Origin: Escherichia coli
GTDB taxonomy: Bacteria; Pseudomonadota; Gammaproteobacteria; Enterobacterales; Enterobacteriaceae
NCBI RefSeq assembly: GCF_051903065.1
Contig: NZ_CP178438.1
Reading direction: 5' to 3' (one strand)
Length of the DNA: 64,000 nucleotides
A program made the position numbers and the translations under genes. Below the pieces are notes generated by a model. It ran no database searches. It had not been told where the DNA came from and worked only from the letters and a program-made list of their open reading frames with translations. Positions 11,067 through 40,922 of the stretch are shown here, piece by piece. Position 1 is the stretch's first letter; each line of letters starts with the position of its first letter.

Positions 11067-11093
11067 ATTTATCTGCAAAAAGGAATATCGATT

Positions 11094-13928: not shown

Positions 13929-13945
13929 GTCAGACCTCCCGGGTA

Positions 13946-17580: not shown

Positions 17581-17595
17581 GGTAATGACTCCAAC

Positions 17596-18293: not shown

Positions 18294-18457
18294 TGGAGCA
18301 CCTCAAAAACACCATCATACACTAAATCAGTAAGTTGGCAGCATCACCAACGGAGACTATGTATTAAGAAGCCAATCGTAAAAACGGTTCCCTGGCGAGA
18401 TAAACGACAAACAAATGGAAAGCCGGATGATATTTACCTTCATCCGGCATTATTGAC

Positions 18458-22667: not shown

Positions 22668-22688
22668 TGTTTCTCTCCTCGTTTTCGC

Positions 22689-23093: not shown

Positions 23094-23097
23094 TTTT

Positions 23098-24321: not shown

Positions 24322-24331
24322 AGCCTGCTCC

Positions 24332-25384: not shown

Positions 25385-26883
25385 CAGAAACGCTCCAGTT
25401 CAGGAAAAGGTAAATGACCGTGATGCACGTGCATGGCACCAAATTCAGCACAGCGGTGTAGCGTGGGAATGTTTTTTCCTGGGTTCAGCAAACCATCCGG
25501 ATCAAACGCCGCCTTGACCGCATGAAAGGTCGTGATTTCATCGCTGTTGAACTGGGCGCACATTTGATTGATTTTTTCTCGCCCGATGCCATGTTCCCCA
25601 CTGATGCTGCCGCCAACTTCAACGCAGAGTTCGAGGATCTTCCCGCCCAGCACTTCCGCGCGGGCAAATTCACCGGGTTCGTTGGCATCGAAAAGGATTA
25701 AAGGGTGCATGTTGCCGTCTCCGGCATGAAAGACGTTGGCAACGCGTAAATCATATTGCTGCGATAAACGGGCAATGCCTTCCAGTACGCCAGGCAGCGC
25801 GCGGCGCGGGATGGTGCCATCCATGCAGTAGTAATCCGGGGAGATACGTCCTACCGCCGGGAATGCATTTTTGCGACCGGCCCAGAAACGTACGCGCTCT
25901 GCTTCGTCCTGTGCCAGACGGACGTCAGTCGCGCCCGCTTTCAACAAGATGTCGTTAACCCGCTCGCAGTCTTCCTGTACATCAGACTCCACGCCGTCCA
26001 GCTCGCATAACAAAATCGCTTCGGCGTCGACGGGATAACCGGCATGAATAAAATCTTCCGCCGCGCGGATCGACAGGTTATCCATCATCTCCAGCCCGCC
26101 GGGGATAATGCCATTGGCGATGATGTCACCAACCGCAAGTCCGGCTTTTTCTACCGAGTCAAAGCTTGCTAACAGAACCCGCGCCACGGGCGGCTTCGGC
26201 AGCAGTTTTACCGTCACTTCGGTGGTCACGCCGAGCATACCTTCCGATCCGGTGAACAACGCCAGCAGGTCAAAACCAGGCGAATCCAGCGCATCCGATC
26301 CCAGCGTCAGCGCCTCGCCATCCAGCGTTTGCACTTCAATTTTCAGCAGGTTATGTACGGTCAGACCATATTTCAGGCAGTGGACGCCGCCGGCATTTTC
26401 AGCCACATTGCCGCCAATCGAACAGGCGATTTGTGATGAAGGATCCGGCGCGTAATAGAGATTATGCGGCGCAACGGCCTGGGAGATCGCCAGGTTACGC
26501 ACGCCCGGCTGCACACGCGCGCGGCGACCAACGGGGTTAATGTCGAGGATCTCTTTAAAGCGCGCCATCACCAACAACACACCTTTTTCCAGCGGCAGCG
26601 CGCCACCAGAAAGCCCGGTGCCTGCACCACGGGTCACCACCGGTACACGCAGGCGGTGGCAGACAGCCAGAATCGCTGTCACCTGTTCCATCTGCTTAGG
26701 CAGAACAACCAGTAATGGACGCGTGCGATACGCGCTCAACCCGTCACACTCGTAAGGAATGATCTCCTCATCGGTATGCAGGATCTCCAGTCCAGGGACA
26801 TGCTCACGCAGTGCCATCAGTACCGATGTGCGGTCGACATCGGGTAAAGCGCCATCAAGACGCTCTTCGTACAAGATGCTCAT
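25384..26883 (-). CDS. glcD: Glycolate oxidase subunit GlcD (FAD-linked oxidase)
   Basis: 499 aa; first gene of the glcDEFGBA operon. Confidence 0.9.
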   Translation of the reverse strand: MSILYEERLDGALPDVDRTSVLMALREHVPGLEILHTDEEIIPYECDGLSAYRTRPLLVVLPKQMEQVTAILAVCHRLRVPVVTRGAGTGLSGGALPLEKGVLLVMARFKEILDINPVGRRARVQPGVRNLAISQAVAPHNLYYAPDPSSQIACSIGGNVAENAGGVHCLKYGLTVHNLLKIEVQTLDGEALTLGSDALDSPGFDLLALFTGSEGMLGVTTEVTVKLLPKPPVARVLLASFDSVEKAGLAVGDIIANGIIPGGLEMMDNLSIRAAEDFIHAGYPVDAEAILLCELDGVESDVQEDCERVNDILLKAGATDVRLAQDEAERVRFWAGRKNAFPAVGRISPDYYCMDGTIPRRALPGVLEGIARLSQQYDLRVANVFHAGDGNMHPLILFDANEPGEFARAEVLGGKILELCVEVGGSISGEHGIGREKINQMCAQFNSDEITTFHAVKAAFDPDGLLNPGKNIPTLHRCAEFGAMHVHHGHLPFPELERF

Positions 26884-27133
26884 GAGTAGGCTTCGCTTTG
26901 TTATGTTGTGTGGCAGCTGATTTTTGCGCGCTGCTTCTGTGAACAGTTATTAAGCGGGCTTTTCGTTTTCGTCTATCTCTTTAGCTACCGGTCAGACCAT
27001 TTTTTTTCCAGCTCTGTGACCTTGTCTTGGTTAACTTAATGTTAAATTGATGTAACATAATCACTTACGTGATGTGCGTGTTTTGCGAGTTAAGAACAGA
27101 AAAATTGGTCCTACCTGTGCACGAGGTCCGGGA
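26884..27133. promoter_or_regulatory. Divergent glcD / glcC promoter region
   Basis: Intergenic region between divergently transcribed glcD and glcC; individual sites not mapped. Confidence 0.5.
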
Positions 27134-27898
27134 ATGAAAGATGAACGTCGCCCTATTTGCGAAGTGGTTGCAGAGAGTATCGAACGGTTAATTATCGACG
27201 GCGTACTGAAGGTCGGTCAGCCGCTTCCCTCGGAACGTCGACTGTGTGAAAAGCTCGGCTTCTCACGCTCCGCACTGCGTGAAGGGCTGACCGTGCTGCG
27301 CGGGCGCGGGATTATTGAAACGGCGCAGGGTCGCGATTCTCGTGTCGCACGGCTTAATCGGGTGCAGGACACCAGTCCGCTGATCCATCTGTTCAGTACG
27401 CAACCGCGAACGCTGTACGATCTGCTCGATGTTCGCGCATTACTGGAGGGCGAATCGGCAAGGCTTGCGGCAACGCTGGGAACCCAGGCTGATTTTGTTG
27501 TGATAACCCGCTGTTATGAAAAAATGCTCGCCGCCAGTGAGAACAACAAAGAGATTTCGCTGATCGAACATGCGCAGTTGGATCACGCTTTCCATCTCGC
27601 CATTTGTCAGGCTTCTCACAATCAGGTGCTGGTGTTTACGCTGCAATCATTGACCGATCTGATGTTTAATTCAGTGTTTGCCAGCGTAAATAATCTCTAC
27701 CATCGACCACAGCAAAAAAAGCAGATCGATCGCCAGCATGCGCGGATCTACAACGCGGTGTTGCAGCGGCTGCCGCACGTCGCCCAGCGCGCAGCACGCG
27801 ATCATGTGCGGACCGTGAAAAAGAATCTCCACGATATCGAGCTGGAAGGCCACCATTTGATTCGCTCGGCGGTGCCGCTGGAGATGAACCTGAGTTAG
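27134..27898 (+). CDS. glcC: GntR-family transcriptional activator GlcC
   Basis: Start MKDERRPICEVVAESIERLIIDG; ATG at 27134 checked on the sequence. Confidence 0.9.
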   Translation: MKDERRPICEVVAESIERLIIDGVLKVGQPLPSERRLCEKLGFSRSALREGLTVLRGRGIIETAQGRDSRVARLNRVQDTSPLIHLFSTQPRTLYDLLDVRALLEGESARLAATLGTQADFVVITRCYEKMLAASENNKEISLIEHAQLDHAFHLAICQASHNQVLVFTLQSLTDLMFNSVFASVNNLYHRPQQKKQIDRQHARIYNAVLQRLPHVAQRAARDHVRTVKKNLHDIELEGHHLIRSAVPLEMNLS

Positions 27899-27904
27899 CT
27901 GGTA

Positions 27905-29047
27905 TTAAATCTGCTTTTCATACAATCGGTAACGCTTGTACGGCTCCGCCCCAATGCGTTCCAGCATGTTATTCATGCCTGTATTGGTTTCGAGGATCCA
28001 TGACATCTCCAGCGCATCGATCTTCCGGCGGGCAAACGGATCGCGTAAGGCTTCAATCAATAACAGCGCAATCACCGGGCCGATGCGGCTGAACTGATAC
28101 TCGTCGCGCACGCCCATCAGCGGTACTCTCGCAGTTCGCACACCGCTGACTTTCAAACGCCACAGCAATTTTGCCCAGCCGAAGGGAAAGAGCGATCCGT
28201 TCAGATCGGCAATCGCCTCGTTGATGTTCGGCAAGCCGACAATAAACGCGCAGGGTGCAGAATCAATCTCAGCGATGTAGATCATATCGTCCGGCACCAG
28301 ATATTTAAGTTGGTCGCCCATGGTCGCGAATTCATGTTCGGTAAACGGCACAAATCCCCAGTTGTGCTGCCAGCCAGAGTTGAAAATCTCACGCAGGATC
28401 TGCATCTCTTCGGCAAACCGCTGACGATTGATGCAGCGAATGGTCACCTTTTTGCGCACCTGATCCATCAGTTTTTTTAGCGCCGGAGAGAAAGTGAGAT
28501 CGGTTCGCTGCATCCACCACGCCAGTAAATCAATGCCTTTGTGATAACCCAGTTGTTCAATATGCGCGGCATACCACGGTTTGCCGTGTGGCATCATCGC
28601 ACAGGGTGGTGTATCGAAACCTTCAATCAGTAATCCGCTTTCCTGATTGATATTCAGGCTGAAAGGACCGCTGATCTTACTTGCACCTTGTGACTTCAAC
28701 CACGCTTCCGCTGCGCCAAACAACGCGGCAAAAACCTGCGGATCATCAATGGCGTCAATCATGCCGAAATGACCGGTATCTTCGCCGTAACGCTCGCGGT
28801 GTAAGGTATCGATTTGCGCGGTAATACGCCCAACTATCTGCCCGGCTATTTTTGCCACCCACGCCTGCCAGATGATATGGTCCGTCCCCGGATTTTTCAC
28901 AGACAAATGCTCGTTGCGTTCAATGAATAAAGGGGGTATCCAGTTTGGATCGTCGGGATAAAGTGATGACGGAAAAGCGATAAATGCCTTAAGGTCATTT
29001 TTATTAGTTACTTTTTCAATTTGAATCATTAGCAGATCGCATTCCAT
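27905..29047 (-). CDS. yghO: YghO, predicted acyl-CoA N-acyltransferase fold (candidate ceramide-synthase-like enzyme)
   Basis: 380 aa intact ORF matching recalled YghO; acyltransferase fold is recalled annotation, not verified here. Confidence 0.75.
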   Translation of the reverse strand: MECDLLMIQIEKVTNKNDLKAFIAFPSSLYPDDPNWIPPLFIERNEHLSVKNPGTDHIIWQAWVAKIAGQIVGRITAQIDTLHRERYGEDTGHFGMIDAIDDPQVFAALFGAAEAWLKSQGASKISGPFSLNINQESGLLIEGFDTPPCAMMPHGKPWYAAHIEQLGYHKGIDLLAWWMQRTDLTFSPALKKLMDQVRKKVTIRCINRQRFAEEMQILREIFNSGWQHNWGFVPFTEHEFATMGDQLKYLVPDDMIYIAEIDSAPCAFIVGLPNINEAIADLNGSLFPFGWAKLLWRLKVSGVRTARVPLMGVRDEYQFSRIGPVIALLLIEALRDPFARRKIDALEMSWILETNTGMNNMLERIGAEPYKRYRLYEKQI

Positions 29048-29418
29048 AGTTCTGTAGATAACAAAAAATTAACGGTGACAAACAGGTTGCAACAGCAACG
29101 AACGGCATCTTAATAATCAACCCAATGAATACAAACGACGAATAAATAGTATTTATTAATGATTACGATAAGGTCAGAGACTACACAGAAGCGCCACAAT
29201 GCCTTTTGTCGATTTAAGGCGACCGGACAAGGCTTCTTCTTAATATATTCATAAATTAAATATCATTCACAATAAAAACAAAAAAACTCAAACTCATTAT
29301 TTAAATCAATGTTCATTTTCACACTGATGAAAATACTATCTCATTTATCTTTTATGCCTATATAATCCACCGCATTATTGTCATTTTATTTTGGATATCC
29401 AATTTTTTCGTGGTGTAT

Positions 29419-31140
29419 ATGTCTAATAAAATCTTTACGCATTCCCTACCTATGCGCTATGCCGATTTTCCAACGCTGGTTGATGCTTTGGACTACGCCG
29501 CTCTGAGTAGCGCTGGAATGAATTTTTATGACAGACGTTGCCAACTTGAAGATCAACTGGAATATCAGACGTTAAAAGCGCGTGCCGAAGCTGGTGCGAA
29601 GCGGTTGTTATCGCTAAACCTGAAAAAAGGCGATCGCGTGGCGCTGATTGCCGAAACCAGTAGCGGGTTCGTAGAGGCTTTTTTTTCCTGCCAGTATGCC
29701 GGCTTAGTCGCCGTCCCGTTGGCGATTCCAATGGGCGTCGGTCAGCGGGATTCCTGGAGCGCCAAACTGCAGGGTTTACTGGCAAGTTGCCAGCCCGCTG
29801 CCATTATCACTGGTGATGAGTGGTTGCCGCTGGTCAATGCCGCCACGCATAACAACCCCGAATTGCATGTATTAAGCCACACCTGGTTTAAGGCATTACC
29901 GGAAGCCGATGTTGCGCTCCAGCGTCCAGTTCCGAACGATATCGCCTACCTCCAGTACACCTCCGGCAGCACCCGTTTTCCCCGTGGCGTCATTATCACC
30001 CATCGCGAAGTGATGGCTAATCTACGTGCTATAAGCCACGACGGCATTAAATTACGCCCTGGCGACCGCTGCGTCTCCTGGCTGCCTTTCTACCATGATA
30101 TGGGACTGGTCGGCTTTCTCCTGACCCCCGTCGCCACGCAGCTTTCAGTAGATTATTTGCGCACTCAGGATTTTGCCATGCGTCCTCTGCAATGGCTTAA
30201 ATTGATCAGTAAAAATCGCGGCACCGTTTCCGTTGCGCCGCCGTTTGGCTATGAATTGTGCCAGCGCCGCGTGAATGAAAAAGATCTCGCTGAACTGGAT
30301 CTTTCCTGCTGGCGCGTCGCTGGTATTGGTGCAGAACCCATCTCCACAGAACAACTCCATCAATTCGCTGAATGTTTCCGTCAGGTTAACTTTGACAATA
30401 AAACTTTCATGCCGTGCTACGGACTGGCAGAAAATGCGCTGGCTGTCAGCTTCTCTGATGAAGCCTCCGGGGTTGTGGTTAACGAAGTGGATCGCGACAT
30501 CCTCGAATATCAGGGTAAAGCCGTCGCGCCGGGTGCAGAGACACGCGCCGTATCGACTTTCGTCAACTGCGGCAAAGCGTTGCCGGAACATGGTATTGAA
30601 ATCCGCAATGAAGCAGGTATGCCGGTCGCGGAACGTGTGGTAGGCCATATTTGCATCTCCGGTCCCAGTCTGATGAGCGGTTACTTTGGCGACCAGGCTT
30701 CGCAAGACGAGATTGCCGCGACGGGCTGGTTAGACACTGGCGACCTCGGATATCTGCTGGACGGTTATCTGTATGTCACCGGACGCATTAAAGATCTGAT
30801 TATTATTCGTGGCCGTAATATCTGGCCGCAGGATATTGAATATATAGCGGAACAGGAACCGGAAATTCATTCTGGCGATGCGATTGCTTTTGTTACCGCC
30901 CAGGAAAAAATCATTTTGCAGATCCAGTGTCGGATCAGCGATGAAGAACGTCGCGGGCAGCTTATCCACGCGCTGGCGGCACGGATCCAAAGCGAATTTG
31001 GCGTGACCGCGGCTATCGATCTGTTGCCGCCCCACAGTATTCCCCGAACGTCCTCCGGCAAGCCTGCCCGTGCGGAAGCGAAAAAACGTTATCAGAAGGC
31101 TTATGCTGCAAGCCTTCATGTGCAGGAATCCCTGGCATGA
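29419..31140 (+). CDS. Fatty acyl-AMP ligase / acyl-ACP synthetase (adenylate-forming enzyme)
   Basis: AMP-binding motifs YTSGSTRFPRGV and TGDLGY; ORF track begins at GTG 29410, first ATG at 29419. Confidence 0.85.
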   Translation: MSNKIFTHSLPMRYADFPTLVDALDYAALSSAGMNFYDRRCQLEDQLEYQTLKARAEAGAKRLLSLNLKKGDRVALIAETSSGFVEAFFSCQYAGLVAVPLAIPMGVGQRDSWSAKLQGLLASCQPAAIITGDEWLPLVNAATHNNPELHVLSHTWFKALPEADVALQRPVPNDIAYLQYTSGSTRFPRGVIITHREVMANLRAISHDGIKLRPGDRCVSWLPFYHDMGLVGFLLTPVATQLSVDYLRTQDFAMRPLQWLKLISKNRGTVSVAPPFGYELCQRRVNEKDLAELDLSCWRVAGIGAEPISTEQLHQFAECFRQVNFDNKTFMPCYGLAENALAVSFSDEASGVVVNEVDRDILEYQGKAVAPGAETRAVSTFVNCGKALPEHGIEIRNEAGMPVAERVVGHICISGPSLMSGYFGDQASQDEIAATGWLDTGDLGYLLDGYLYVTGRIKDLIIIRGRNIWPQDIEYIAEQEPEIHSGDAIAFVTAQEKIILQIQCRISDEERRGQLIHALAARIQSEFGVTAAIDLLPPHSIPRTSSGKPARAEAKKRYQKAYAASLHVQESLA

Positions 31141-32051
31141 ATCAAACTGTCGCGGTGACGGGCGCTACCGGTTTTATCGGTAAATATATTATCGATAACC
31201 TGCTCGCCCGCGGCTTTCACGTTCGCGCATTGACGCGTACTGCCCGCGCTCACGTCAATGATAATCTCACCTGGGTGCGCGGTTCGCTGGAAGATACTCA
31301 TTCACTTAGCGAACTGGTTGCCGGAGCCAGTGCGGTGGTCCATTGCGCCGGGCAAGTGCGCGGACACAAAGAGGATGTCTTTACTCGCTGTAACGTTGAC
31401 GGTAGCCTGCGCTTGATGCAGGCGGCAAAAGAGAGCGGCTTTTGCCAACGTTTTCTATTTATCTCTTCGCTGGCGGCGCGCCATCCCGAGCTCTCCTGGT
31501 ATGCAAAATCCAAACATGTCGCCGAACAACGACTGGCAGCAATGGCGGACGCAATTACGCTGGGCGTTTTTCGCCCAACGGCAGTCTATGGCCCCGGCGA
31601 TAAAGAGTTAAAACCACTGTTTGACTGGATGCTGCGCGGCCTGCTGCCACGGCTGGGCGCACCAGATACACAGCTCTCTTTCCTGCACGTCACCGATTTC
31701 GCACAAGCCGTGGGTCAGTGGTTAAGCGCCGACTCCGTACAGACGCAAACGTATGAATTATGTGATGGTGTCGTCGGTGGCTATGACTGGCAGCGCATAC
31801 AACAACTGGCCGCCGCCGCCCGCCAGGGAGCTGTACGGATGGTCGGCGTTCCTCTGCCGTTGCTCACCTGCCTTGCGGATATCAGTACCGCGTTGAGTCG
31901 CCTGGCAGGTAAAGAACCTATGCTGACCCGCTCGAAAATTCGTGAATTAACCCACGCCGACTGGTCGGCAAGTAATAACCGTATTTCTGAAGATATTAAT
32001 TGGTTTCCCGGGATTAGCCTGGAACACGCATTACGCAACGGGCTATTTTGA
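31137..32051 (+). CDS. Extended SDR (NAD-dependent epimerase/dehydratase family) reductase
   Basis: Rossmann GATGFIG at N-terminus and YAKSK (YxxxK) motif; start overlaps the upstream stop (ATGA). Confidence 0.85.
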   Translation: MNQTVAVTGATGFIGKYIIDNLLARGFHVRALTRTARAHVNDNLTWVRGSLEDTHSLSELVAGASAVVHCAGQVRGHKEDVFTRCNVDGSLRLMQAAKESGFCQRFLFISSLAARHPELSWYAKSKHVAEQRLAAMADAITLGVFRPTAVYGPGDKELKPLFDWMLRGLLPRLGAPDTQLSFLHVTDFAQAVGQWLSADSVQTQTYELCDGVVGGYDWQRIQQLAAAARQGAVRMVGVPLPLLTCLADISTALSRLAGKEPMLTRSKIRELTHADWSASNNRISEDINWFPGISLEHALRNGLF

Positions 32052-32082
32052 TTGTCTTGTTTAAAGGTGTGTTAACGTTTCT

Positions 32083-32331
32083 ATGGTAAATCGTGAAATA
32101 GTAATGGATTACATCCTTTCCTGTTTACAGGATTTGGTCGAAAACGGTGTGGAAATTAAGCCCGACAGCGATCTCGTCAACGATCTTGGCCTGGAGTCGA
32201 TCAAAGTGATGGATCTCTTAATGATGCTGGAAGACAGATTCGATATTTCCATTCCTATTAATATTCTGCTGGATGTCAAAACCCCTGCGCAATTAATGGA
32301 AACTCTACTTCCATGGCTGGAGAATAAATAA
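32083..32331 (+). CDS. Acyl carrier protein
   Basis: 82 aa; DLGLESIKVMDLLMMLED resembles the phosphopantetheine attachment region; AAGGTG upstream of ATG 32083. Confidence 0.7.
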   Translation: MVNREIVMDYILSCLQDLVENGVEIKPDSDLVNDLGLESIKVMDLLMMLEDRFDISIPINILLDVKTPAQLMETLLPWLENK

Positions 32332-33503
32332 TGGGGCTATACGATAAATATGCGCGCCTTGCTGGCGAGCGACTGCAATTTAGTGACAACGGGTTAACAC
32401 CGTTTGGCACCTGTATTGATGAAGTGTATTCCGCCACCGAAGGCCGGATCGGCAATAAAAAAGTGATTCTGGCCGGGACCAATAATTACCTCGGTTTAAC
32501 CTTTAATCATGATGCCATCGCCGAAGGTCAGGCAGCGTTAGCGACCCAAGGCACCGGCACCACCGGTTCTCGTATGGCAAACGGCAGTTATGCGCCGCAC
32601 CTGGCGTTAGAGAAAGAGATTGCCGAGTTTTTCAATCGCCCTACCGCTATCGTTTTTTCAACCGGTTATACCGCTAATTTAGGCGTCATCAGCGCACTTG
32701 CCGACCATAACGCCGTGGTGTTACTGGATGCCGACAGCCACGCCAGTATTTATGACGCCTGTTCTCTCGGTGGCGCGGAAATTATTCGTTTCCGCCATAA
32801 CGATGCTAAAGATCTGGAACGGCGCATGGTTCGCCTCGGTGAACGGGCGAAAGAGGCGATTATCATCGTTGAGGGCATCTACAGTATGCTCGGTGACGTT
32901 GCGCCACTGGCGGAAATTGTTGATATCAAACGTCGTCTCGGTGGTTATTTGATTGTCGATGAAGCGCATTCGTTTGGCGTGTTAGGCGCAACGGGGCGCG
33001 GACTGGCTGAAGCTGTAGGCGTTGAAGATGATGTGGATATTATCGTTGGCACCTTCAGTAAAAGTCTGGCCTCGATTGGCGGTTTTGCTGTCGGTTCGGA
33101 AGCGATGGAAGTGCTGCGCTACGGCAGCCGCCCGTATATTTTTACCGCCTCTCCTTCTCCGTCCTGCATTGCGACCGTGCGCTCGTCGTTAAGAACTATT
33201 GCCACACAACCAGAGCTGCGGCAAAAGCTGATGGATAATGCCAACCATCTGTATGACGGTCTGCAAAAACTGGGTTATGAGTTAAGTTCACATATTAGCC
33301 CGGTAGTGCCGGTAATAATCGGTTCGAAAGAGGACGGTTTACGCATCTGGCGCGAGCTTATTTCGCTGGGCGTTTATGTGAATCTTATCCTGCCACCTGC
33401 CGCGCCTGCAGGCATCACGCTGCTGCGCTGTAGCGTAAACGCTGCCCACAGTCGTGAGCAAATCGATGCCATCATTCAAGCGTTCGCTACTCTGAAGCAG
33501 TAA
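32331..33503 (+). CDS. PLP-dependent alpha-oxoamine synthase (serine palmitoyltransferase/BioF/Kbl family)
   Basis: 390 aa; PLP-lysine motif GTFSKSLASIGGF; start overlaps the ACP stop. Confidence 0.85.
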   Translation: MGLYDKYARLAGERLQFSDNGLTPFGTCIDEVYSATEGRIGNKKVILAGTNNYLGLTFNHDAIAEGQAALATQGTGTTGSRMANGSYAPHLALEKEIAEFFNRPTAIVFSTGYTANLGVISALADHNAVVLLDADSHASIYDACSLGGAEIIRFRHNDAKDLERRMVRLGERAKEAIIIVEGIYSMLGDVAPLAEIVDIKRRLGGYLIVDEAHSFGVLGATGRGLAEAVGVEDDVDIIVGTFSKSLASIGGFAVGSEAMEVLRYGSRPYIFTASPSPSCIATVRSSLRTIATQPELRQKLMDNANHLYDGLQKLGYELSSHISPVVPVIIGSKEDGLRIWRELISLGVYVNLILPPAAPAGITLLRCSVNAAHSREQIDAIIQAFATLKQ

Positions 33504-33537
33504 TGTGAGCCCGCTGTGGTGTTGCGCCACGGCGGGT

Positions 33538-34617
33538 TTAATGTTGTCTGTCATACCAATACACCAGGCTCAACGCCATCAACACAAACGCTACCGGTAA
33601 ACCGAGCGCGATAACAGGTGCGCTCAACGCAAATAGCAAACCCAGATTGACCATGATTTGATAGCTGATCCAGGTGAGTAAGCCAACGATGACGCCTACA
33701 GCGAGACGGCTACCCATCCCTGGCGAGCGCGGGGCGCTAAAGGTAAACGGCACAGCCAGCAAAATCATCGCCAGGGTCAGGATCGGTTGCCCCAGTTTTT
33801 CCCACAGTGCAAGGCGGTATTCGCTGCTGGGTTGCCCGGTTTCCTGCAAATAATGGATGTAATGATTAAGCTGACGGACAGAAAAAGTATTCCCCGGCAT
33901 CGATAGCTCTTCAAGATCCATACTGGTGAAGGCCGATTGCCAGGCAAGATTATCTGATGTTTCCAGCGTTTCTTTACCGTTAAGCCATTTTTTATGATTC
34001 ACACCATGCAGGATCCACATTTTGTCGTCTTTAATGGTGGCACTGCGTGCATAAATGTAGGATTCGAGCGAGAGATCGTCGCGATAATGAAATATCTCCA
34101 CGCCCACCGGCTGGCCCTGCTCGTTCAGCGATTTCACCGTTACAAATTCATTACCGCGCCTGGCCCAAAGCATATTGCCGGTAATATCATCGTCCTCCCC
34201 CAACGCAGTGGCGGTCGATTTGATTTGCAGCGCCTGTTGCTGCAATGGCGACGCTACCCACTCATCTATCGCGCCTAACGAAACAGTCCACAATATCCCG
34301 GCAACCAGCGCCACCAGTGCAATACGGAAGATAGAAAACCCCGTGCTGCGAATGGCGGTAAGCTCACTGTTTTTCGATAACTGCCCCAGGCCAACAATCC
34401 CTCCCAATAAGGCGATAAACGGCGAAAGTTCGACCAGTGTGCGCGGTAAGGTCATTAGCACCACCAGCACCGCCTGAGTCCAGCGATAACCGCCCGGGCT
34501 GACATCATCCAGTTCGTTAATCAGGTTGAAGGTGGTAAAAAGCGGCAGCAATAGCCCTGCGGCGGCGGCAAAACCGAGAAAGAGATGACGGATTAAATAG
34601 CGACTGAAAACATTCAT
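33538..34617 (-). CDS. LptG-like permease (YjgP/YjgQ family)
   Basis: Start MNVFSRYLIRHLFLGF; six-helix permease pattern; 4-bp overlap with the upstream LptF-like gene. Confidence 0.75.
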   Translation of the reverse strand: MNVFSRYLIRHLFLGFAAAAGLLLPLFTTFNLINELDDVSPGGYRWTQAVLVVLMTLPRTLVELSPFIALLGGIVGLGQLSKNSELTAIRSTGFSIFRIALVALVAGILWTVSLGAIDEWVASPLQQQALQIKSTATALGEDDDITGNMLWARRGNEFVTVKSLNEQGQPVGVEIFHYRDDLSLESYIYARSATIKDDKMWILHGVNHKKWLNGKETLETSDNLAWQSAFTSMDLEELSMPGNTFSVRQLNHYIHYLQETGQPSSEYRLALWEKLGQPILTLAMILLAVPFTFSAPRSPGMGSRLAVGVIVGLLTWISYQIMVNLGLLFALSAPVIALGLPVAFVLMALSLVYWYDRQH

Positions 34618-35684
34618 CGGGAAAATTTCTGCAGCAAAGAGAAGTCGCGTGCGACCAGCATCAGCAGGCCCATTAGCATGAGTCCGGGCACTAACCACAA
34701 ACCAGGAATGAGAGGAATCGCGCCGTTAGCCACCAGCGTACGGCAGACGTCGCCGCCATAAAAAATGACAACAAACAGCAACGTCAGTGGCAATAACGTT
34801 GAAAATCGCCCTTGCCGCGGTTTTACCCGACTTAATGAAATGGCCAGCAGCGCCATCAACAATGCGGTCAGGCCACGGCTTTGTCGCCATTGCAGTTCGG
34901 CATGATCGGCCGGAAAGACGGAGCGCGCCAGCTCCGTGACCGATTTTGCTTTGCGTTTGACGTTAGGGCTTTGATCCAGCGGATTCAGATGTAATTGCAG
35001 ATTACGGTAGATCTGTTCGTTGTCGTCACGCCCCTGATGATCGAGAAGATAGGCGGTGCCGTTGTGCAACATAACGGTCGGTTTCTCGGGAGATGGGTCA
35101 ACCACATCAACCGAACGGGCGCGGAAAATGCGGGTTCGATTGGCAGTAGAAGTATAAATCAGCGCGTCAGTCAGGCGATTATTATCCTGATCAACCGTCT
35201 GCGAAAGGATCATTCGTCCGTTATCGTTAGTGTTAAATTTCTTTGCCCGCAACTGGCGAACATCCAGCTCCGACTGCGACTGCTGCTCCAGTTGATAAAT
35301 CTGCGCATAAGCCCACGGACGACCATACATCGACAGAAGGGTGACAAAAATACTTAGCGGTATCGCCAGATAAAGAACGGCTTTGTACAAGCGTCCCGGA
35401 CTGCCCCCTGCCGCAGAGATAGCAGTAATTTCCGAGTCGGTATACATCTGCCCTAGCGTCACGCCAACTGACACATACAGTCCAACAGGTAACAACATCT
35501 CCAGTGCAATCAGCACCTTGTAGAAAACGATATCCAGCACAACATCAAGTGCTAATGTCCCATTTGCCGCTTCGGTCAGATAACGCTGTGCGGAGTAGCT
35601 GGCGAAAATAAAGATCAGAAAACCGACGATAATCAGCACCAGACGGCGCGTACCACGCATGATGTAGTGTTCAACCAGCTTCAT
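34614..35684 (-). CDS. LptF-like permease (YjgP/YjgQ family)
   Basis: 356 aa; MKLVEHYIMRGTRRLVLII; paired with the LptG-like gene. Confidence 0.75.
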   Translation of the reverse strand: MKLVEHYIMRGTRRLVLIIVGFLIFIFASYSAQRYLTEAANGTLALDVVLDIVFYKVLIALEMLLPVGLYVSVGVTLGQMYTDSEITAISAAGGSPGRLYKAVLYLAIPLSIFVTLLSMYGRPWAYAQIYQLEQQSQSELDVRQLRAKKFNTNDNGRMILSQTVDQDNNRLTDALIYTSTANRTRIFRARSVDVVDPSPEKPTVMLHNGTAYLLDHQGRDDNEQIYRNLQLHLNPLDQSPNVKRKAKSVTELARSVFPADHAELQWRQSRGLTALLMALLAISLSRVKPRQGRFSTLLPLTLLFVVIFYGGDVCRTLVANGAIPLIPGLWLVPGLMLMGLLMLVARDFSLLQKFSR

Positions 35685-35714
35685 CTCACTAACGCCCTCA
35701 ATCCTTTGAATTTT

Positions 35715-36278
35715 TTATTCATTGATCAGTTTCTGCGCCAGCGCAATGACATGATCTACCTCTTCCGGCGTCAGGCTGCCGTCCTTTGCCCACTGAATTT
35801 GCCCGGTTTTATTCAGCACCAGAATGGTTGAACTCTGCTCCGGCAAGCGCCAGGCAACGCGTCCCTGTCCATTGCCGTCAATAACGAATTGCGCCCACGG
35901 ATAGCGGCGTTTATTTTTTTCGATTTTGCCAACGACAAAATAGCCAGTACCAAAGATGGCATCATCAGTGTTCACAATGGTGGTGGGCTGAAAACGATCC
36001 TGTGGAAAGTTTGCCGCTTCAACCGCTTTAATTAACAGTGAGTTCTTTTTCTTCGCCGACTTACGCCCGGCGATATACTGGATAATGCGGACTTTTCCCG
36101 CCAATTGTGTGCTGTTCCACTTTTGGTAGTGAATTTCGTCGTCGCTATTCAGAAGCAGCTCGCCGCCTTCCTGAATATAAACAGGGGTAACCGTTTTGCC
36201 AGTGACGAAATTGTGTGCCTGCACACCCGGGGCTAAGAGCATGATAATCAGCGCAATAATCAAACGAGATGACATCAT
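35715..36278 (-). CDS. YtfJ-family periplasmic protein (paralog)
   Basis: 187 aa with signal peptide; clear similarity to recalled YtfJ (TTIVNTDDAI...YPW.QF..D.NG...WQL...VLDK.G..QWAKDG.LTPEEV). Confidence 0.75.
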   Translation of the reverse strand: MMSSRLIIALIIMLLAPGVQAHNFVTGKTVTPVYIQEGGELLLNSDDEIHYQKWNSTQLAGKVRIIQYIAGRKSAKKKNSLLIKAVEAANFPQDRFQPTTIVNTDDAIFGTGYFVVGKIEKNKRRYPWAQFVIDGNGQGRVAWRLPEQSSTILVLNKTGQIQWAKDGSLTPEEVDHVIALAQKLINE

Positions 36279-36286
36279 TGCTCCGG

Positions 36287-37111
36287 TTATAGCGGAAAAC
36301 GCGAAATCAGCAGCTCTAAGCGCTGGCGAATATCGCTATCCAGCGCCACCGGTGCATCATACGACTGGCGGTTTTCCATATCATCCGCCACCATGTCGTC
36401 GTGTTTATCCCCCATCAGGCCATTAATGGCGGCGAGGAAACGGGAAATCTGTAACGCCTCTTTATTTTCAGGATCAAGCGATCTTAAGGTGTCGTAATAA
36501 GAAACCTGCTGGCTGATGATTTTTCGCACATCATGAAATTCCCTGCCGGTTAGTCGCGGTTTGGCAATTATCTCTTTCAGGGCATGCATTTGCTTTTGCC
36601 GATAGGCAATAAAACCGCTTACGCTTTCTAACTGGCTATGGCGTAATGAATAGTTCACCAACGACCAGACCGGAGAGCTTAAATAAATCCGTAACAGGTT
36701 GCCGTAATACGACACAATATTTTTCTTACCGTTACGAAACCCGTCCTGAAAACGTCCCAGAAAAACGGTCGTTTTGCCGAATAAAAATCCGGCCTGATGC
36801 TTCTTTAAATACAGCCGTTGCGCAAAACGCAGGTGCTTGTAGCGCGCTCGCATGTATTTAAATTGTTTGCGCTCATCAGCAGTCAGCTCATCGCCTTTGG
36901 CTTGTTTGCGAACTAAACGCAGTAATTCCTGACGATTAACGCCATTGAGCCAGAATTGCAGGCATAACGCGTAATTATCATGAATGATTTCGGTGGTACA
37001 ACTTAGTGCAATAGTCGGCGGCAAACTAACCTGTGCATCAACGACATCATCTTCTTCAATCGCAACAAATAGACGCTCGCTCGCCTCAAGCGGGAAATAT
37101 TTTCTCATCAT
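36287..37111 (-). CDS. Hypothetical protein
   Basis: 274 aa ORF between the YtfJ-like gene and yghQ; no motif recognised. Confidence 0.55.
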   Translation of the reverse strand: MMRKYFPLEASERLFVAIEEDDVVDAQVSLPPTIALSCTTEIIHDNYALCLQFWLNGVNRQELLRLVRKQAKGDELTADERKQFKYMRARYKHLRFAQRLYLKKHQAGFLFGKTTVFLGRFQDGFRNGKKNIVSYYGNLLRIYLSSPVWSLVNYSLRHSQLESVSGFIAYRQKQMHALKEIIAKPRLTGREFHDVRKIISQQVSYYDTLRSLDPENKEALQISRFLAAINGLMGDKHDDMVADDMENRQSYDAPVALDSDIRQRLELLISRFPL

Positions 37112-38460
37112 CAGGATTTCTCTCCGGCTGCGTTATAAAGCAAGGAATGGCGCTGAAAAAATGCCTTTAAGGTTGGAATTAACGAGAGCGCCACGTCCAG
37201 ACATTGCCCACCGAAGTAAGCAAACGCTGCTCCCAGCACGCCAAACAGATGACAGAACATGAACAGCAATACGATGTAGCCGATTGAGGCGATGGTTTGC
37301 GCCACGAGAAAAGCGCGCTGTTTTCCCGCCATCAATAGCAATGACTCCTGAGGGAAGCCCAGCATCGAGATCACAATTGCGCCCAGCATCACCTGAATCA
37401 GGTCATACGCTTCGAGATACTTAACGCCAAACACCAGCGAAATGAGCGGCTTGCCGACGATCAACACCGCGAGCGCCACCAGAATACCGATTCCGCCCGC
37501 CAGTAAACCGGACTTCACGCCTAACAACCACGGTCTGGTGGTGCGCGGATCTAAACGCATCACCTCTGGGTAAAAACTTTTACCCAGTAAACCCGCTGGC
37601 GTTCCGGCGGCGTCGAAGAATGTCATGGCGATTTTAAATAACCCGGCGGCAGCGGGTCCTAACACGATCCCCACCAACACTGTGCTGCACGAGTTACGTG
37701 CCGACCAGATGGAGTGGGCAATGTTGGTCGACCAGACAAAACTCCACGCGCCTTTAATGTGTCGGGCAGACTCAAACAGATTCAATTTGAAGGCGTTATG
37801 GATATTTCTGCGGCGTAATTCGCGCGCGGCAAACCACCAGTACATGGTGCCGCCAACCAGATTCGACACGTACCAGGCAATAACAAAACCCGCAAAACCA
37901 AAGTCAAAATACCAGGCTACGACGCTCCCCGCTGCGCGCAGAAAAGGTTTCGTCGCCTGCTGTACAGCAATCAAATCAAAGCGATCTACCGCACGCAGAA
38001 TGCCGGTCGGCGTGGAGGAAGCCATTGAAGGAATGAGCGTGCAATACAGCGCCGCCAGCCAAAAGCTTTGGTCATCCAGACCTAATGAATGGGAAAGGAA
38101 TGGCAGTAAGGCAATGCCGCCGACAATCGCCACCGCGCCGCTGACGATATCCAGCGAGAAGGAAAATGAGACGACATTGCGAAATTGCTGCGGATTATTG
38201 TTGGTTAATGCTGGTGTTCCGTACTGAACCACCAGCTGCCATGTCTGAAACTTAATAAAATCGCTGATCGACTTGGCGTACGATTGCACAATCACCAGTA
38301 CGCCAAACATGGCGGGCGTCATCCCTTTACCGGCACACGAGAGCGCCAACAGCCCCAGCAAAGCGCTCACGACATTACTGGAGCCTAACCAGGCGCTATT
38401 GCGAATAATGGTGCGAAACGCGCCATCTGCAAACCAATGTTTGATGTTAAAACCCGCCAA
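37111..38460 (-). CDS. yghQ: YghQ, MOP/Wzx-like polysaccharide/lipid flippase family membrane protein
   Basis: 449 aa polytopic membrane protein; synteny with yghRST. Confidence 0.75.
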   Translation of the reverse strand: MAGFNIKHWFADGAFRTIIRNSAWLGSSNVVSALLGLLALSCAGKGMTPAMFGVLVIVQSYAKSISDFIKFQTWQLVVQYGTPALTNNNPQQFRNVVSFSFSLDIVSGAVAIVGGIALLPFLSHSLGLDDQSFWLAALYCTLIPSMASSTPTGILRAVDRFDLIAVQQATKPFLRAAGSVVAWYFDFGFAGFVIAWYVSNLVGGTMYWWFAARELRRRNIHNAFKLNLFESARHIKGAWSFVWSTNIAHSIWSARNSCSTVLVGIVLGPAAAGLFKIAMTFFDAAGTPAGLLGKSFYPEVMRLDPRTTRPWLLGVKSGLLAGGIGILVALAVLIVGKPLISLVFGVKYLEAYDLIQVMLGAIVISMLGFPQESLLLMAGKQRAFLVAQTIASIGYIVLLFMFCHLFGVLGAAFAYFGGQCLDVALSLIPTLKAFFQRHSLLYNAAGEKS

Positions 38461-38505
38461 TTCAGCCTGACCTTATCGTTGATAGTAAAAAGTATCCCGC
38501 CAGCC

Positions 38506-39264
38506 TTAAGTTAAACTTCGGCGGTCAGAAACGATGGCAACCAGAGAAACCGCCTTCTGTGCCTGTTCCAGCACTTCGCTGTAGGGCGCTCTGGAATCAA
38601 TCTCAAGAATTTTTGTGCCGTTATAGCCAATCGTCGACATAACACCGATTTTGTCCTGCAGCTCGGCATAGTCATGGTCAGGCTTGCGGGAGATGGCAGT
38701 CTCAATATCAATGCCCAGGCGAATAATTAATTCCGGGCGATATTGCGCCATTTGTTGGTATAAACGCCGTTCGCGCTGCGCCAGAAACATGCTTATTTTC
38801 CCGGTCGCACGTTCGACGCCAATCCCCGGTCCATCATAATAAAAGCCCGAAATTTCAGCCTGCGGGAAGCGATCGCTGACCACCAGAACGCCACTTTGCG
38901 CCAGTCGCTGAACCTTGCGTAGATTCGCCATTCTTCGCAGCGAGAAGCAGTACATAATCACCGCCGCCCATAGCGCCGGAGATTTGGTTTTCATGCTTTG
39001 GGTTTTCGAGGATTTGGCCGCCAGTCGCCGTTCCAGCCAGACGCCAACCAACGGCAATCGTTTGATTTTGTCGCCGTCTTCGCCCGAGAGCAGCCCCAAA
39101 TAGCGGCGCTCGGTTTGCCAGTGTTGTTGCAGCGATTTCACCAGGTCGGTGGTCAGCGTGGATTTACCGGTGCCATCACACCCGACCACCGCAATCAGCC
39201 CCGGAATGTAGTTGGGCTGCGGTGCGGTTGTACTATTAACAGTTTGTGTTTGTAGTGCATCCAT
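38506..39264 (-). CDS. yghR: YghR, P-loop ATP-binding protein
   Basis: Walker A GCDGTGKST; matches recalled YghR (MDALQTQTVNSTTAPQPNYIPGLIAVVGCDGTGKSTL). Confidence 0.85.
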   Translation of the reverse strand: MDALQTQTVNSTTAPQPNYIPGLIAVVGCDGTGKSTLTTDLVKSLQQHWQTERRYLGLLSGEDGDKIKRLPLVGVWLERRLAAKSSKTQSMKTKSPALWAAVIMYCFSLRRMANLRKVQRLAQSGVLVVSDRFPQAEISGFYYDGPGIGVERATGKISMFLAQRERRLYQQMAQYRPELIIRLGIDIETAISRKPDHDYAELQDKIGVMSTIGYNGTKILEIDSRAPYSEVLEQAQKAVSLVAIVSDRRSLT

Positions 39265-39295
39265 TCGTTAAATCATCCCCTATCCATTTTGGTGA

Positions 39296-40009
39296 TCAGG
39301 AAAGCGCGGCGTGAATTGCGCGTAGTGACGCTTGCATAATTTCATCGGCTGGTTGCCGACCATCCAGTTCAAGGATCTTTGCGCCATTGAATGTCAGTTG
39401 CGGCGTAACGGCGATTTTTTCCTGTAACGCTGCCAGTTGGTGGTCAGGTTTACGCGCAAACGCGGTTTGTTCATCAATGCCAAGACGAATCAACAATACG
39501 GGTAAATAAGACGCCATCCATTGGTACAGCTTCAACTCGCGCTGCCTTAACATTTTTATCCAACCGTTACCGCCCGTGGTTTTTGCCAATTGCGGGCCAT
39601 CAAAGCGAAAACCCGGCACTTCAACCTGCGGGTAGCGGTCGGTGATGAGCAGATGGCCTTGCTGGCTTCTACACAACATTTTGCGAAACTTGTACGCCCG
39701 CCAGCAGGAAAGCAGATAGATAACCAGCGCAGTAATATTGCCAGGCGGTGTTGAGGGCTTTTCGTGCACATGTGCCGCTTTACTTCGCAGATAACGCCCA
39801 AAAGGTGCGCCAATAACAGGGAGCTGTGAAATCCATTCGCCAATTCGCCCGGACGATTGCCCGAGATAAATGCGTTCTGTTGGCATTCTTGCTGCCAGTT
39901 CATTTACCAGGCTTGCCGTGAGGGTCGATTTACCTGAACCATCACATCCTACAATGGCAATAACACGCACTGGCGTGGAATTAATTATTGACATATTACG
40001 TTGATTCAC
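39296..40009 (-). CDS. yghS: YghS, P-loop ATP-binding protein (YghR paralog)
   Basis: Walker A GCDGSGKST; 237 aa. Confidence 0.85.
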   Translation of the reverse strand: MNQRNMSIINSTPVRVIAIVGCDGSGKSTLTASLVNELAARMPTERIYLGQSSGRIGEWISQLPVIGAPFGRYLRSKAAHVHEKPSTPPGNITALVIYLLSCWRAYKFRKMLCRSQQGHLLITDRYPQVEVPGFRFDGPQLAKTTGGNGWIKMLRQRELKLYQWMASYLPVLLIRLGIDEQTAFARKPDHQLAALQEKIAVTPQLTFNGAKILELDGRQPADEIMQASLRAIHAALS

Positions 40010-40182
40010 GAAAAACCCGGCAGTAAATAATGTATTGAATATTACGTGGTCCGTGCTCAGAATATCCGTTCAACCTTATTGTGACAATGGTTAATTGTGA
40101 CATTGACCTGAATTACGCTTTCATAAAAACATATTAACCAAATAAATATTTTGGATGGATATTTAAATTAAAGGATATATTC

Positions 40183-40875
40183 ATGCAGTCAATAACACCT
40201 CCATTAATTGCCGTTATTGGTAGCGATGGTTCAGGCAAGTCAACGGTGTGTGAACATCTCATTACCGTTGTCGAAAAATATGGTGCTGCCGAAAGAGTTC
40301 ATTTAGGAAAACAAGCCGGAAATGTCGGTCGTGCAGTGACAAAATTACCGTTGATGGGAAAATCCTTACATAAAACAATTGAACGAAATCAGGTGAAAAC
40401 AGCAAAAAAATTGCCAGGACCAGTTCCGGCGCTGGTAATTACAGCGTTTGTCGCCCGTCGCTTACTGCGCTTTCGTCATATGCTTGCCTGTCGTCGTCGC
40501 GGGTTAATTGTTCTAACCGACCGTTATCCTCAGGACCAAATTCCTGGCGCTTACGATGGTACGGTGTTCCCACCTAACGTTGAAGGTGGTCGTTTTGTCT
40601 CATGGCTGGCAAGCCAGGAACGTAAAGCGTTTCACTGGATGGCGAGCCATAAGCCTGATCTGGTCATCAAACTCAATGTCGATCTAGACGTGGCCTGCGC
40701 GCGTAAGCCTGACCACAAAAGGGAGTCGCTGGCAAGAAAGATAGCCATAACGCCACAGTTAACCTTTGGTGGTGCACAACTGGTTGATATCGACGCCAAT
40801 CAGCCACTGGAACAGGTGTTAGTTGATGCAGAAAAAGCGATTACGGATTTTATGACCGCGCGTGGTTATCACTAG
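40183..40875 (+). CDS. yghT: YghT, P-loop ATP-binding protein (YghR/S paralog)
   Basis: Walker [10 protein letters not shown]; 230 aa. Confidence 0.85.
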
Positions 40876-40922
40876 CCAAAAATGGAAATGCCCGATCGCC
40901 AGGACCGGGCATTTCAGGAAGG

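What the first reader, a model, noticed from the sequence alone, without database searches (positions are those of the whole stretch)
27905..37111. Region probably lost in K-12 by IS5-associated deletion
As I recall the K-12 map, yghO is followed by an IS5 copy and then yghQ. Here about 8 kb (29.0-37.1 kb) with eight intact genes lies between them and no IS is present. This window therefore appears to preserve the ancestral, intact locus, which makes it a better template than K-12 for studying the system.
Basis: established knowledge. Interest (0 to 1): 0.5.

Follow-up and report, generated by a model that had tools for sequence, protein, structure and literature searches.

The report
Sphingolipid gene cluster missing from K-12

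Summary
K-12 MG1655 aligns with window 23000-29006 and 37392-42999. Between those blocks it has only a 1195-bp IS5, so window 29007-37391 (8,385 bp) is missing. That interval holds eight intact genes and no IS. The deletion also removes 41 nt of the yghO 5' end and 281 nt of the yghQ 3' end.

Two refinements apply. First, the loss happened in at least two steps. K-12 strains WG1 and NCM3722 keep about 7 kb, with one IS5 inside the acyl carrier protein gene and a second IS5 next to a 1.36-kb deletion. Second, this is a known system. aasR-cerR-acpR-spt plus yghO are the dihydroceramide genes, and three of the BL21 versions (aasR, acpR, spt) have been assayed. lptF2/lptG2 match the Caulobacter sphingolipid exporter.

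About 75% of 5,426 complete E. coli genomes carry the segment. Independent losses linked to IS1, ISKpn26 or other IS elements occur in other isolates, and O157:H7 lacks the whole locus.

New here: all 13 genes from yghO to yghT travel together in Serratia and Sodalis. The unnamed 274-aa protein has a CHAD fold. YghR, YghS and YghT are paralogous kinases with a thymidylate-kinase-like fold.

Verdict: correct, already known, modest interest.

The parts
27905..29047 (-). yghO, the predicted ceramide synthase (N-acyltransferase, 'aca'/bCerS). It is intact here. MG1655 lacks its first 41 nt.
   Evidence: ORF. No Pfam or NCBIfam hit. Assigned as the aca orthologue of Caulobacter CC_1154 in PMC9386255 Fig. 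9. 78-79% aa orthologues lie in the Serratia and Sodalis clusters.
29048..29409 (.). AT-rich divergent intergenic region between yghO and aasR, presumed to hold the promoters. Deleted in MG1655.
   Evidence: GC 0.41-0.44; sequence. The promoter scan gives only chance-level matches, so the promoter role is inferred.
29410..31140 (+). aasR, the acyl-ACP synthetase (a fatty acyl-AMP ligase). The start annotated in relatives corresponds to about 29452.
   Evidence: PF00501 at 5e-57. NF006624 scores 874.7 bits against a cutoff of 600. The BL21 orthologue ECD_02851 was shown to support 3-oxo-sphinganine formation with its cognate ACP and Spt (PMC9386255).
31137..32051 (+). cerR/epi, an NAD-dependent reductase of the epimerase/dehydratase family. 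Its 3' two-thirds are unusually divergent.
   Evidence: PF01370 at 2e-23. Corresponds to ECD_02852 / CC_1164. dS 0.27 against HS, compared with 0.02-0.12 for the other genes.
32083..32331 (+). acpR, the dedicated acyl carrier protein. In K-12 WG1 and NCM3722 an IS5 sits at TTAA 32294-32297.
   Evidence: PF00550 at 1e-13. Junctions with a TTAA duplication. The BL21 AcpR was shown to carry 4'-phosphopantetheine.
32331..33503 (+). spt, serine palmitoyltransferase.
   Evidence: NF047599 equivalog scores 599.5 bits against a cutoff of 500. BL21 Spt ECD_02854 made 3-oxo-sphinganine and preferred acyl-AcpR as substrate.
33506..33540 (.). 16-pair hairpin between the convergent genes spt and lptG2; a likely bidirectional terminator.
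   Evidence: The function is inferred.
33538..34617 (-). lptG2, an LptG-family permease.
   Evidence: PF03739 at 1e-68; TIGR04408 scores 304 bits against a cutoff of 240. Caulobacter LptG2 binds LptF2 and LptB.
34614..35684 (-). lptF2, an LptF-family permease.
   Evidence: TIGR04407 scores 320 bits against a cutoff of 230. Literature as for lptG2.
35715..36278 (-). YtfJ-family periplasmic protein with a signal peptide. Its 5' (N-terminal) part is already lost in WG1 and NCM3722.
   Evidence: PF09695 at 2e-59. N-terminus reads MMSSRLIIALIIMLLAPGVQA. Truncation seen.
36287..37111 (-). 274-aa protein with no family assignment and a CHAD-like all-helical fold. Lost in every K-12 genome examined here (WG1/NCM3722 type and MG1655 type).
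37111..38460 (-). yghQ, a MOP-family flippase. K-12 lacks its last 281 nt.
   Evidence: PF01943 and PF13440. Annotated as a pseudogene in MG1655.
38506..39264 (-). yghR, a P-loop kinase with a thymidylate-kinase-like fold.
39296..40009 (-). yghS, a paralogue of yghR.
   Evidence: 40% identical to YghR. Orthologue in Serratia and Sodalis at 72%.
40183..40875 (+). yghT, a paralogue of yghR and yghS. It marks the end of the 13-gene module.
29007..37391 (.). Interval absent from MG1655-type K-12 and replaced there by one IS5 (8,385 bp).
   Evidence: 356 genomes carry this junction or a near-congruent one; that count includes strain C21, which has an independent ISKpn26 junction.
36036..37391 (.). 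Interval absent from WG1/NCM3722-type K-12. This is the first-step deletion, next to the IS5 that MG1655 retains.

Best explanation
Window 27905-40875 is the intact 13-gene sphingolipid locus of E. coli.

Proposed pathway:
- AasR loads a fatty acid onto the dedicated carrier AcpR.
- Spt condenses acyl-AcpR with serine to give 3-oxo-sphinganine.
- CerR and YghO reduce and N-acylate it to dihydroceramide.
- The remaining genes are inferred to add a head group and export the lipid to the outer membrane. These are LptF2/LptG2 (probably powered by the housekeeping LptB), the flippase YghQ, a periplasmic YtfJ-family protein, a CHAD-fold protein and the three kinases YghR, YghS and YghT.

How K-12 lost the core, in steps:
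1. An IS5 at a CTAA site in yghQ became flanked by a 1.36-kb deletion reaching a TTAA in the ytfJ-like gene. A second IS5 inserted into acpR. This is the state of WG1 and NCM3722.
2. In the lineage of EMG2, MG1655 and W3110, everything from that IS5 leftward to a TTAA 41 nt inside yghO was lost (about 7.0 kb plus the acpR IS5).

What is shown: the endpoints, the intermediates, the gene families, and activity for the BL21 versions of aasR, acpR and spt (from the literature). What is inferred: the order of events, the deletion mechanism (IS5 adjacent deletion or IS5-IS5 recombination), and the roles of the seven non-ceramide genes (lptF2, lptG2, yghQ, the ytfJ-like gene, the CHAD-fold gene and yghR/S/T count as eight with lptF2/G2 separate; all are assigned by inference).
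For: - Alignment endpoints and the IS5.
- The flanks do not match (TTAA and CTAA), and both neighbouring genes are truncated.
- The WG1/NCM3722 structure has the same right junction as MG1655 and a TTAA duplication around the acpR IS5.
- Strain 300709 is intact and matches K-12 with 0-1 mismatch per aligned block.
- The segment is present in 4063 of 5426 genomes.
- Family assignments score above curated cutoffs for aasR, spt, lptF and lptG.
- All 13 genes have orthologues at 62-82% aa identity, clustered in a different order and with different neighbours, in Serratia and Sodalis.
- dN/dS is 0.03-0.28 for most genes, with no frameshifts.
- Literature: PMC9386255 (BL21 AasR, AcpR and Spt assays; yghO named as aca), the 2026 bioRxiv preprint 10.64898/2026.04.12.717747 (LptF2/G2 bind LptB; E. 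coli UTI89 locus drawn), PMC3045373 and PMC9997739 (extra block in NCM3722 and WG1).
Against: - No sphingolipid has been reported from wild-type E. coli. BL21(DE3) has the intact locus, yet empty-vector extracts gave no 3-oxo-sphinganine, so the native locus may be silent in ordinary media.
- E. coli lacks homologues of the Caulobacter head-group genes. CpgB is an LCB5/DAG-kinase-type enzyme, not a P-loop kinase, so the final product is unknown.
- The base next to the IS5 in yghQ differs from all intact sequences examined (CTAA against CTGA), which the model explains only by assuming an earlier SNP.
- The order of the two K-12 steps rests on parsimony.
Confidence: 0.9

Rival explanations
1. 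The 8.4 kb is an island gained by the window's lineage, and K-12 shows the original empty site.
For: The yghO-aasR intergenic region is AT-rich. The module sits in different contexts in Serratia and Sodalis, so it has moved between genomes at some time.
Against: In K-12 both flanking genes are truncated and an IS5 occupies the junction. The segment has genome-like GC content. It sits at the same site in phylogroups A, B1, B2 and E. Strains essentially identical to K-12 in the shared DNA have it.
Confidence: 0.02
2. K-12 lost the segment in one event: a single IS5 insertion with one flanking deletion.
For: MG1655 shows only one IS5 and one gap.
Against: WG1 and NCM3722 share MG1655's exact right junction, including the CTAA difference, but keep 7 kb and a second IS5. 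Two independent origins of that same junction are very unlikely.
Confidence: 0.06
3. The second K-12 step was homologous recombination between directly repeated IS5 copies, after a third IS5 had landed at the TTAA in yghO. It was not a transposase-made adjacent deletion.
For: The two IS5 copies in NCM3722 have the same orientation and are identical. The left breakpoint is a canonical IS5 target, TTAA. K-12 stocks accumulate IS5 insertions (PMC9997739).
Against: No K-12 genome with an IS5 at the yghO TTAA together with retained downstream genes appeared among the best hits. The end product is identical under both mechanisms, so the sequence cannot decide.
Confidence: 0.45
4. In E. coli the locus is a decaying relic that no longer makes any lipid, so its loss in K-12 has no consequence.
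For: IS-linked disruption recurs in unrelated isolates and O157:H7 lacks the locus entirely. Empty-vector BL21 shows no product.
Against: All 13 genes are intact in about 75% of genomes. dN/dS is well below 1. The whole set is conserved across Enterobacterales families. The cloned BL21 enzymes are active.
Confidence: 0.2

Closest known systems
Caulobacter crescentus sphingolipid locus CC_1152-CC_1168 (ccna_01212-01226)
   Same: Both have aasR, cerR, acpR and spt as neighbours, a cerS/aca gene nearby, a second LptF/LptG pair, a MOP-type flippase candidate and no LptB of their own.
   Different: E. coli has no LptC2 and none of the ceramide-phosphoglycerate genes (cpgABC, CC_1152/1153/1158). In their place it has three P-loop kinases, a CHAD-fold protein and a YtfJ-family periplasmic protein. 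The E. coli product is unknown.
E. coli BL21(DE3) ECD_02850-02854 (Padilla-Gomez et al. 2022, PMC9386255)
   Same: Same locus and same genes. BL21 covers 100% of window 26000-40000 at 98.0% identity (row H9).
   Different: That paper treats only five genes and describes the locus as a feature of E. coli B. It does not mention the K-12 deletion (no occurrence of 'K-12').
The '7 kb of new sequence' in K-12 NCM3722 and the extra block in WG1 (PMC3045373; PMC9997739)
   Same: This is the same DNA that MG1655 lacks. Those papers already note the IS5 in the carrier protein gene and the restored yghO.
   Different: They did not link the block to sphingolipids; one tested a biotin hypothesis. They also did not note that even NCM3722 and WG1 lack 1.36 kb of the locus.
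Other IS5-linked lesions of K-12, such as rfb-50 (IS5 in wbbL)
   Same: Envelope-related genes inactivated by IS5 during the history of K-12.
   Different: Here the IS5 is associated with deletions that remove eight genes and clip two more, rather than with a simple insertion.

Membership tests
IS-associated deletion (K-12 MG1655 relative to the window) | An IS element sits exactly at the junction of two blocks that are separated in intact relatives. | tested here: met
   A 1195-bp IS5 lies between the blocks that match window ...29006 and 37392....
IS-associated deletion (K-12 MG1655 relative to the window) | The flanks of the IS are not a target-site duplication, and the neighbouring genes are truncated. 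| tested here: met
   TTAA on the left and CTAA on the right. yghO lacks 41 nt and yghQ lacks 281 nt.
IS-associated deletion (K-12 MG1655 relative to the window) | The intact state is ancestral: present in close relatives and in outgroups. | tested here: met
   Strain 300709 is essentially identical to K-12 and intact. 4063 of 5426 genomes carry the segment. Orthologues occur in E. albertii, Serratia and Sodalis. The chromosomal position in E. albertii was not checked.
Rhodobacteria-type ceramide synthesis cluster (aasR-cerR-acpR-spt plus cerS) | An Spt of the alpha-oxoamine synthase family that scores as serine palmitoyltransferase. | tested here: met
   NF047599 scores 599.5 bits against a cutoff of 500.
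Rhodobacteria-type ceramide synthesis cluster (aasR-cerR-acpR-spt plus cerS) | A dedicated ACP gene directly upstream of spt, and an adenylating acyl-ACP synthetase nearby. | tested here: met
   acpR ends at 32331, where spt starts. aasR scores 874.7 bits on NF006624.
Rhodobacteria-type ceramide synthesis cluster (aasR-cerR-acpR-spt plus cerS) | Orthologues of the CerR reductase and the bCerS N-acyltransferase. | tested here: inconclusive
   cerR matches only the broad epimerase/SDR family. yghO matches no profile. Both assignments rest on PMC9386255 Fig. 9. I did not align them with the Caulobacter proteins.
Rhodobacteria-type ceramide synthesis cluster (aasR-cerR-acpR-spt plus cerS) | The organism makes a ceramide or other sphingolipid. 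| not testable with these tools
   Only heterologous overexpression data exist for the E. coli enzymes.
LptB2F2G2 sphingolipid exporter | A second LptF/LptG pair encoded in the sphingolipid locus, with no LptB gene of its own. | tested here: met
   TIGR04407 and TIGR04408 score above their cutoffs. None of the 13 genes encodes an ABC ATPase.
LptB2F2G2 sphingolipid exporter | The pair forms a complex with the housekeeping LptB and is required when anionic sphingolipid is made. | not testable with these tools
   Shown only for Caulobacter.
CHAD domain (Pfam PF05235), for the 274-aa protein | The two-fold helical-bundle CHAD fold. | tested here: met
   [not shown]
CHAD domain (Pfam PF05235), for the 274-aa protein | A sequence match to the CHAD profile. 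| tested here: not met
   No Pfam hit even at E <= 10. It therefore has a CHAD-like fold but is not a recognised family member. Polyphosphate binding is untested.
Thymidylate kinase (dTMP kinase), for YghR/S/T | A score above the curated dTMP kinase cutoff. | tested here: not met
   [not shown]

The most novel reading that the evidence does not exclude
The Enterobacterales version of the locus makes a sphingolipid with a head group unlike the Caulobacter ceramide-phosphoglycerates. In this reading the head group is built by the three paralogous P-loop kinases YghR, YghS and YghT together with the CHAD-fold protein, possibly as a multiply phosphorylated or polyphosphate-linked ceramide. YghQ, LptF2G2 and the periplasmic YtfJ-like protein would then export it. 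The long-unexplained K-12 genes yghO, yghQ, yghR, yghS and yghT would be stranded remnants of this pathway.
Probability: 0.3. Interest if true: 0.6.

Novelty: already known. Interest (0 to 1): 0.25.

Why it matters
Most E. coli envelope biology has been worked out in MG1655-type K-12, which cannot make this lipid. About three quarters of sequenced E. coli could, including pathogens (ST131, O104:H4, ExPEC) and BL21. Whether and when E. coli makes an outer-membrane sphingolipid is still an open, testable question. The endpoint map shows which strains are suitable. HS, BL21 and wild phylogroup A isolates that are near-identical to K-12 are intact. WG1 and NCM3722 are partial, and MG1655 and O157:H7 lack the core. 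The map also suggests that yghR, yghS and yghT belong to this pathway rather than to nucleotide metabolism.

Tried and rejected
- I first supposed that YghR/S/T were homologues of the Caulobacter ceramide kinase CpgB. I rejected this because CpgB has an LCB5/DAG-kinase domain with a GGDG motif, not a P-loop.
- My first guess at the NCM3722 coordinates fetched the wrong region, because the record has a different origin.
- The promoter scan over the locus gave no more matches than shuffled sequence.
- Sequence searches of YghS, YghO and the YtfJ-like protein against solved structures gave nothing significant.
- The afdb50 fold library was unavailable.
- I did not classify all 1161 genomes that lack the segment. 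I identified only the MG1655-type junction class (356 genomes, which includes C21), the O157:H7 pattern and a handful of individual cases.
- I did not fetch Caulobacter sequences, so orthology of yghO and cerR to bCerS and CerR rests on the literature.
Full report
**1. The observation**

The ORF list for window 24-41 kb shows yghO at 27905-29047 (-). After it come eight ORFs:
- 29410-31140 (+)
- 31137-32051 (+)
- 32083-32331 (+)
- 32331-33503 (+)
- 33538-34617 (-)
- 34614-35684 (-)
- 35715-36278 (-)
- 36287-37111 (-)

yghQ follows at 37111-38460 (-). A megablast of window 26000-40000 against 5,426 complete E. coli genomes found K-12 records covering only 40% of the query. Their annotation reads yghO, IS5, yghQ.

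In MG1655 (NZ_CP010440) the annotation is yghO, an IS5 transposase gene, then a yghQ pseudogene 'missing C-terminus'. Strain HS has all eight intervening genes.

blastn places MG1655 on window 23000-29006 and 37392-42999, with 1195 bp of IS5 in between. The missing interval is therefore window 29007-37391, 8,385 bp, with one base of ambiguity at each junction. It removes the first 41 nt of yghO and the last 281 nt of yghQ as well as the eight genes.

Probes for IS5, IS1 and ISKpn26 find nothing in the interval. The only IS hit in the window is an IS1 at 17581-18348. All eight genes, and the five flanking genes of the locus, align without gaps to HS and have no internal stops.

**2. Direction of the change**

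The K-12 state is derived, for three reasons.
- The bases flanking the IS5 are TTAA on the left and CTAA on the right. That is not a 4-bp target duplication, and both neighbouring genes are truncated.
- Wild phylogroup A isolates such as strain 300709 match K-12 with 0-1 mismatch per aligned block in the shared DNA and carry the complete locus.
- The 8,385-bp segment is at least 80% covered in 4063 of 5426 genomes. These include HS, BL21, O104:H4, O103:H2, O55:H7, ST131, IHE3034 and clone D i2.

**3. K-12 lost it in steps**

NCM3722, WG1 and three CY strains have a different structure:
- yghO is intact, and aasR and cerR are present.
- acpR is interrupted by an IS5 at TTAA (window 32294-32297), with the TTAA duplicated on both sides. 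This is a simple insertion.
- spt, lptG2 and lptF2 follow.
- The ytfJ-like gene is truncated.
- A second IS5 follows, then the same truncated yghQ.

blastn gives NCM3722 matching window 18413-32301 and 32293-36035, and then 37392 onward. The second IS5 therefore replaces window 36036-37391 (1,356 bp). Its right junction (IS5|CTAAATCAGG) is identical to the MG1655 junction.

The parsimonious order is the WG1/NCM3722 state first. A further loss then ran from the left end of that IS5 to the TTAA in yghO, removing about 7.0 kb plus the acpR IS5. Two mechanisms give the same product: IS5 intramolecular transposition (adjacent deletion), or recombination with a third, directly repeated IS5. The sequence cannot separate them.

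One detail is unexplained. The intact sequences read CTGAATCAGG at the yghQ site, whereas K-12 reads CTAAATCAGG. That one-base difference creates the canonical IS5 target CTAA.

These facts are already in print. Lyons et al. 2011 described '7 kb of new sequence' and an extra IS5 in NCM3722, restoring yghO (PMC3045373). Browning et al. 2023 noted that WG1, unlike EMG2, MG1655 and W3110, carries a block with lptG, an ACP gene and an epimerase gene flanked by IS5 (PMC9997739).

**4. Other losses**

A query spanning the MG1655 junction is at least 80% covered in 356 genomes. These are K-12 derivatives, apart from strain C21. Independent events include:
- C21 has ISKpn26 (IS5 family) with a nearly congruent 8.8-kb deletion.
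- SY3626 has IS1 joining yghO to gss.
- eco-241 has two IS1 copies and a truncated spt.
- 2018-18.25PC has an IS1-flanked rearrangement.
- 23CRST027, the genome closest to the window, has IS1 inside yghO.
- O157:H7 genomes lack everything from glcA into pitB, which abuts IS3/IS66 debris.

In all, 1161 genomes have no match to the segment. I did not classify all of them.

**5. What the locus is**

Profile searches give the following:

| Gene | Assignment | Score |
|---|---|---|
| aasR | fatty acyl-AMP ligase | NF006624, 874.7 bits, cutoff 600 |
| cerR/epi | NAD-dependent epimerase/SDR family | PF01370, 2e-23 |
| acpR | acyl carrier protein | PF00550, 1e-13 |
| spt | serine palmitoyltransferase | NF047599, 599.5 bits, cutoff 500 |
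| lptG2 | LptG family | TIGR04408, 304 bits, cutoff 240 |
| lptF2 | LptF family | TIGR04407, 320 bits, cutoff 230 |
| ytfJ-like | YtfJ family, with a signal peptide | PF09695, 2e-59 |
| yghQ | MOP flippase | PF01943, PF13440 |

The published work fits these assignments.
- Padilla-Gomez et al. 2022 (PMC9386255) worked on the BL21(DE3) genes. AcpR (ECD_02853) carries phosphopantetheine. AasR (ECD_02851), AcpR and Spt (ECD_02854) together make 3-oxo-sphinganine. Spt prefers acyl-AcpR. The paper lists ECD_02852 as the reductase and yghO (ECD_02850) as the N-acyltransferase.
- In Caulobacter, LptF2 and LptG2 form a complex that uses the housekeeping LptB. They become essential when anionic sphingolipid is made. 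The same preprint draws the E. coli UTI89 locus (bioRxiv 10.64898/2026.04.12.717747).

(a) *Extent of the module.* Starting from the unnamed 274-aa protein, homologues appear across Enterobacterales: E. albertii, Pseudocitrobacter, Hafnia, Shimwellia, Sodalis, Serratia and Pantoea. In a Serratia genome and a Sodalis-like contig, all 13 genes from yghO to yghT are present at 62-82% aa identity. They are clustered, but in a different order and between different neighbours. This argues that yghQ, yghR, yghS, yghT, the ytfJ-like gene and the 274-aa gene belong to the same functional unit as the ceramide genes.

(d) *Selection.* dN/dS against HS and IHE3034 is 0.03-0.28 for nearly all genes. yghS gives 0.56 against HS, on 11 substitutions. 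This is consistent with function being maintained.

**7. Caveats**

No wild-type E. coli sphingolipid has been reported. BL21 has the intact locus (row H9), yet empty-vector BL21 extracts made no 3-oxo-sphinganine. The native locus therefore appears silent in standard media. Together with recurrent IS-linked loss, this keeps open the view that the locus is dispensable or conditionally used.

**8. Verdict**

The endpoints need correcting, the loss was stepwise, and both the deletion and the system are already described. Interest is modest. The residual novelty lies in the unassigned head-group and export genes.

Noticed in passing
window 17581-18348 and 1-18412: A complete IS1 sits directly upstream of glcA. 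Everything upstream of 18413 is not collinear with K-12, which has sslE and the T2SS-beta genes there. In the closest genome, 23CRST027, this region is a CP4-like island with YeeU/CbtA and ParDE toxin-antitoxin genes and remnants of a type VI secretion system.
   Followed up: partly
window 31250-32000 (3' two-thirds of cerR/epi): A sharply divergent patch: 16-28 mismatches per 250 nt against HS, compared with 0-12 elsewhere, and dS 0.27. This suggests a recombinant allele of the reductase gene. acpR, immediately downstream, is 100% identical to HS.
   Followed up: partly
window 37392-37396, the K-12 right junction: K-12 reads CTAA next to the IS5, whereas the window, HS and the K-12-like intact strain 300709 read CTGA. 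This single-base difference creates the canonical IS5 target. Its origin is unexplained.
   Followed up: partly
window 33506-33540: A 16-pair GC-rich hairpin lies exactly between the convergent genes spt and lptG2. It is probably a bidirectional terminator.
   Followed up: no
[not shown]
   Followed up: partly
L010 (23CRST027) and the window: The window is 100% identical to 23CRST027 from about 28.3 kb through the cluster, whereas the block 6.2-28.3 kb is 98.2% identical overall. Only 21 of 5,426 genomes are at least 99% identical over the cluster, so this cluster allele is rare. 23CRST027 itself has IS1 inside yghO.
   Followed up: no
P0229, P0211 and P0206 (distant YghR/S/T relatives): The YghR/S/T kinase domain occurs fused to a MOP flippase plus an NTP_transf_5 domain, to a GT4 glycosyltransferase, and to NTP_transf_5 alone. 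This points to a role in assembling a glycoconjugate or lipid head group rather than in nucleotide metabolism.
   Followed up: partly
P0032 and H38: Some E. coli genomes have a chimeric ORF annotated as GspM that is 84% identical to the CHAD-fold protein. Strain 52F4 has gspM next to yghS. These indicate yet another rearrangement, joining this locus to the nearby type II secretion genes.
   Followed up: no
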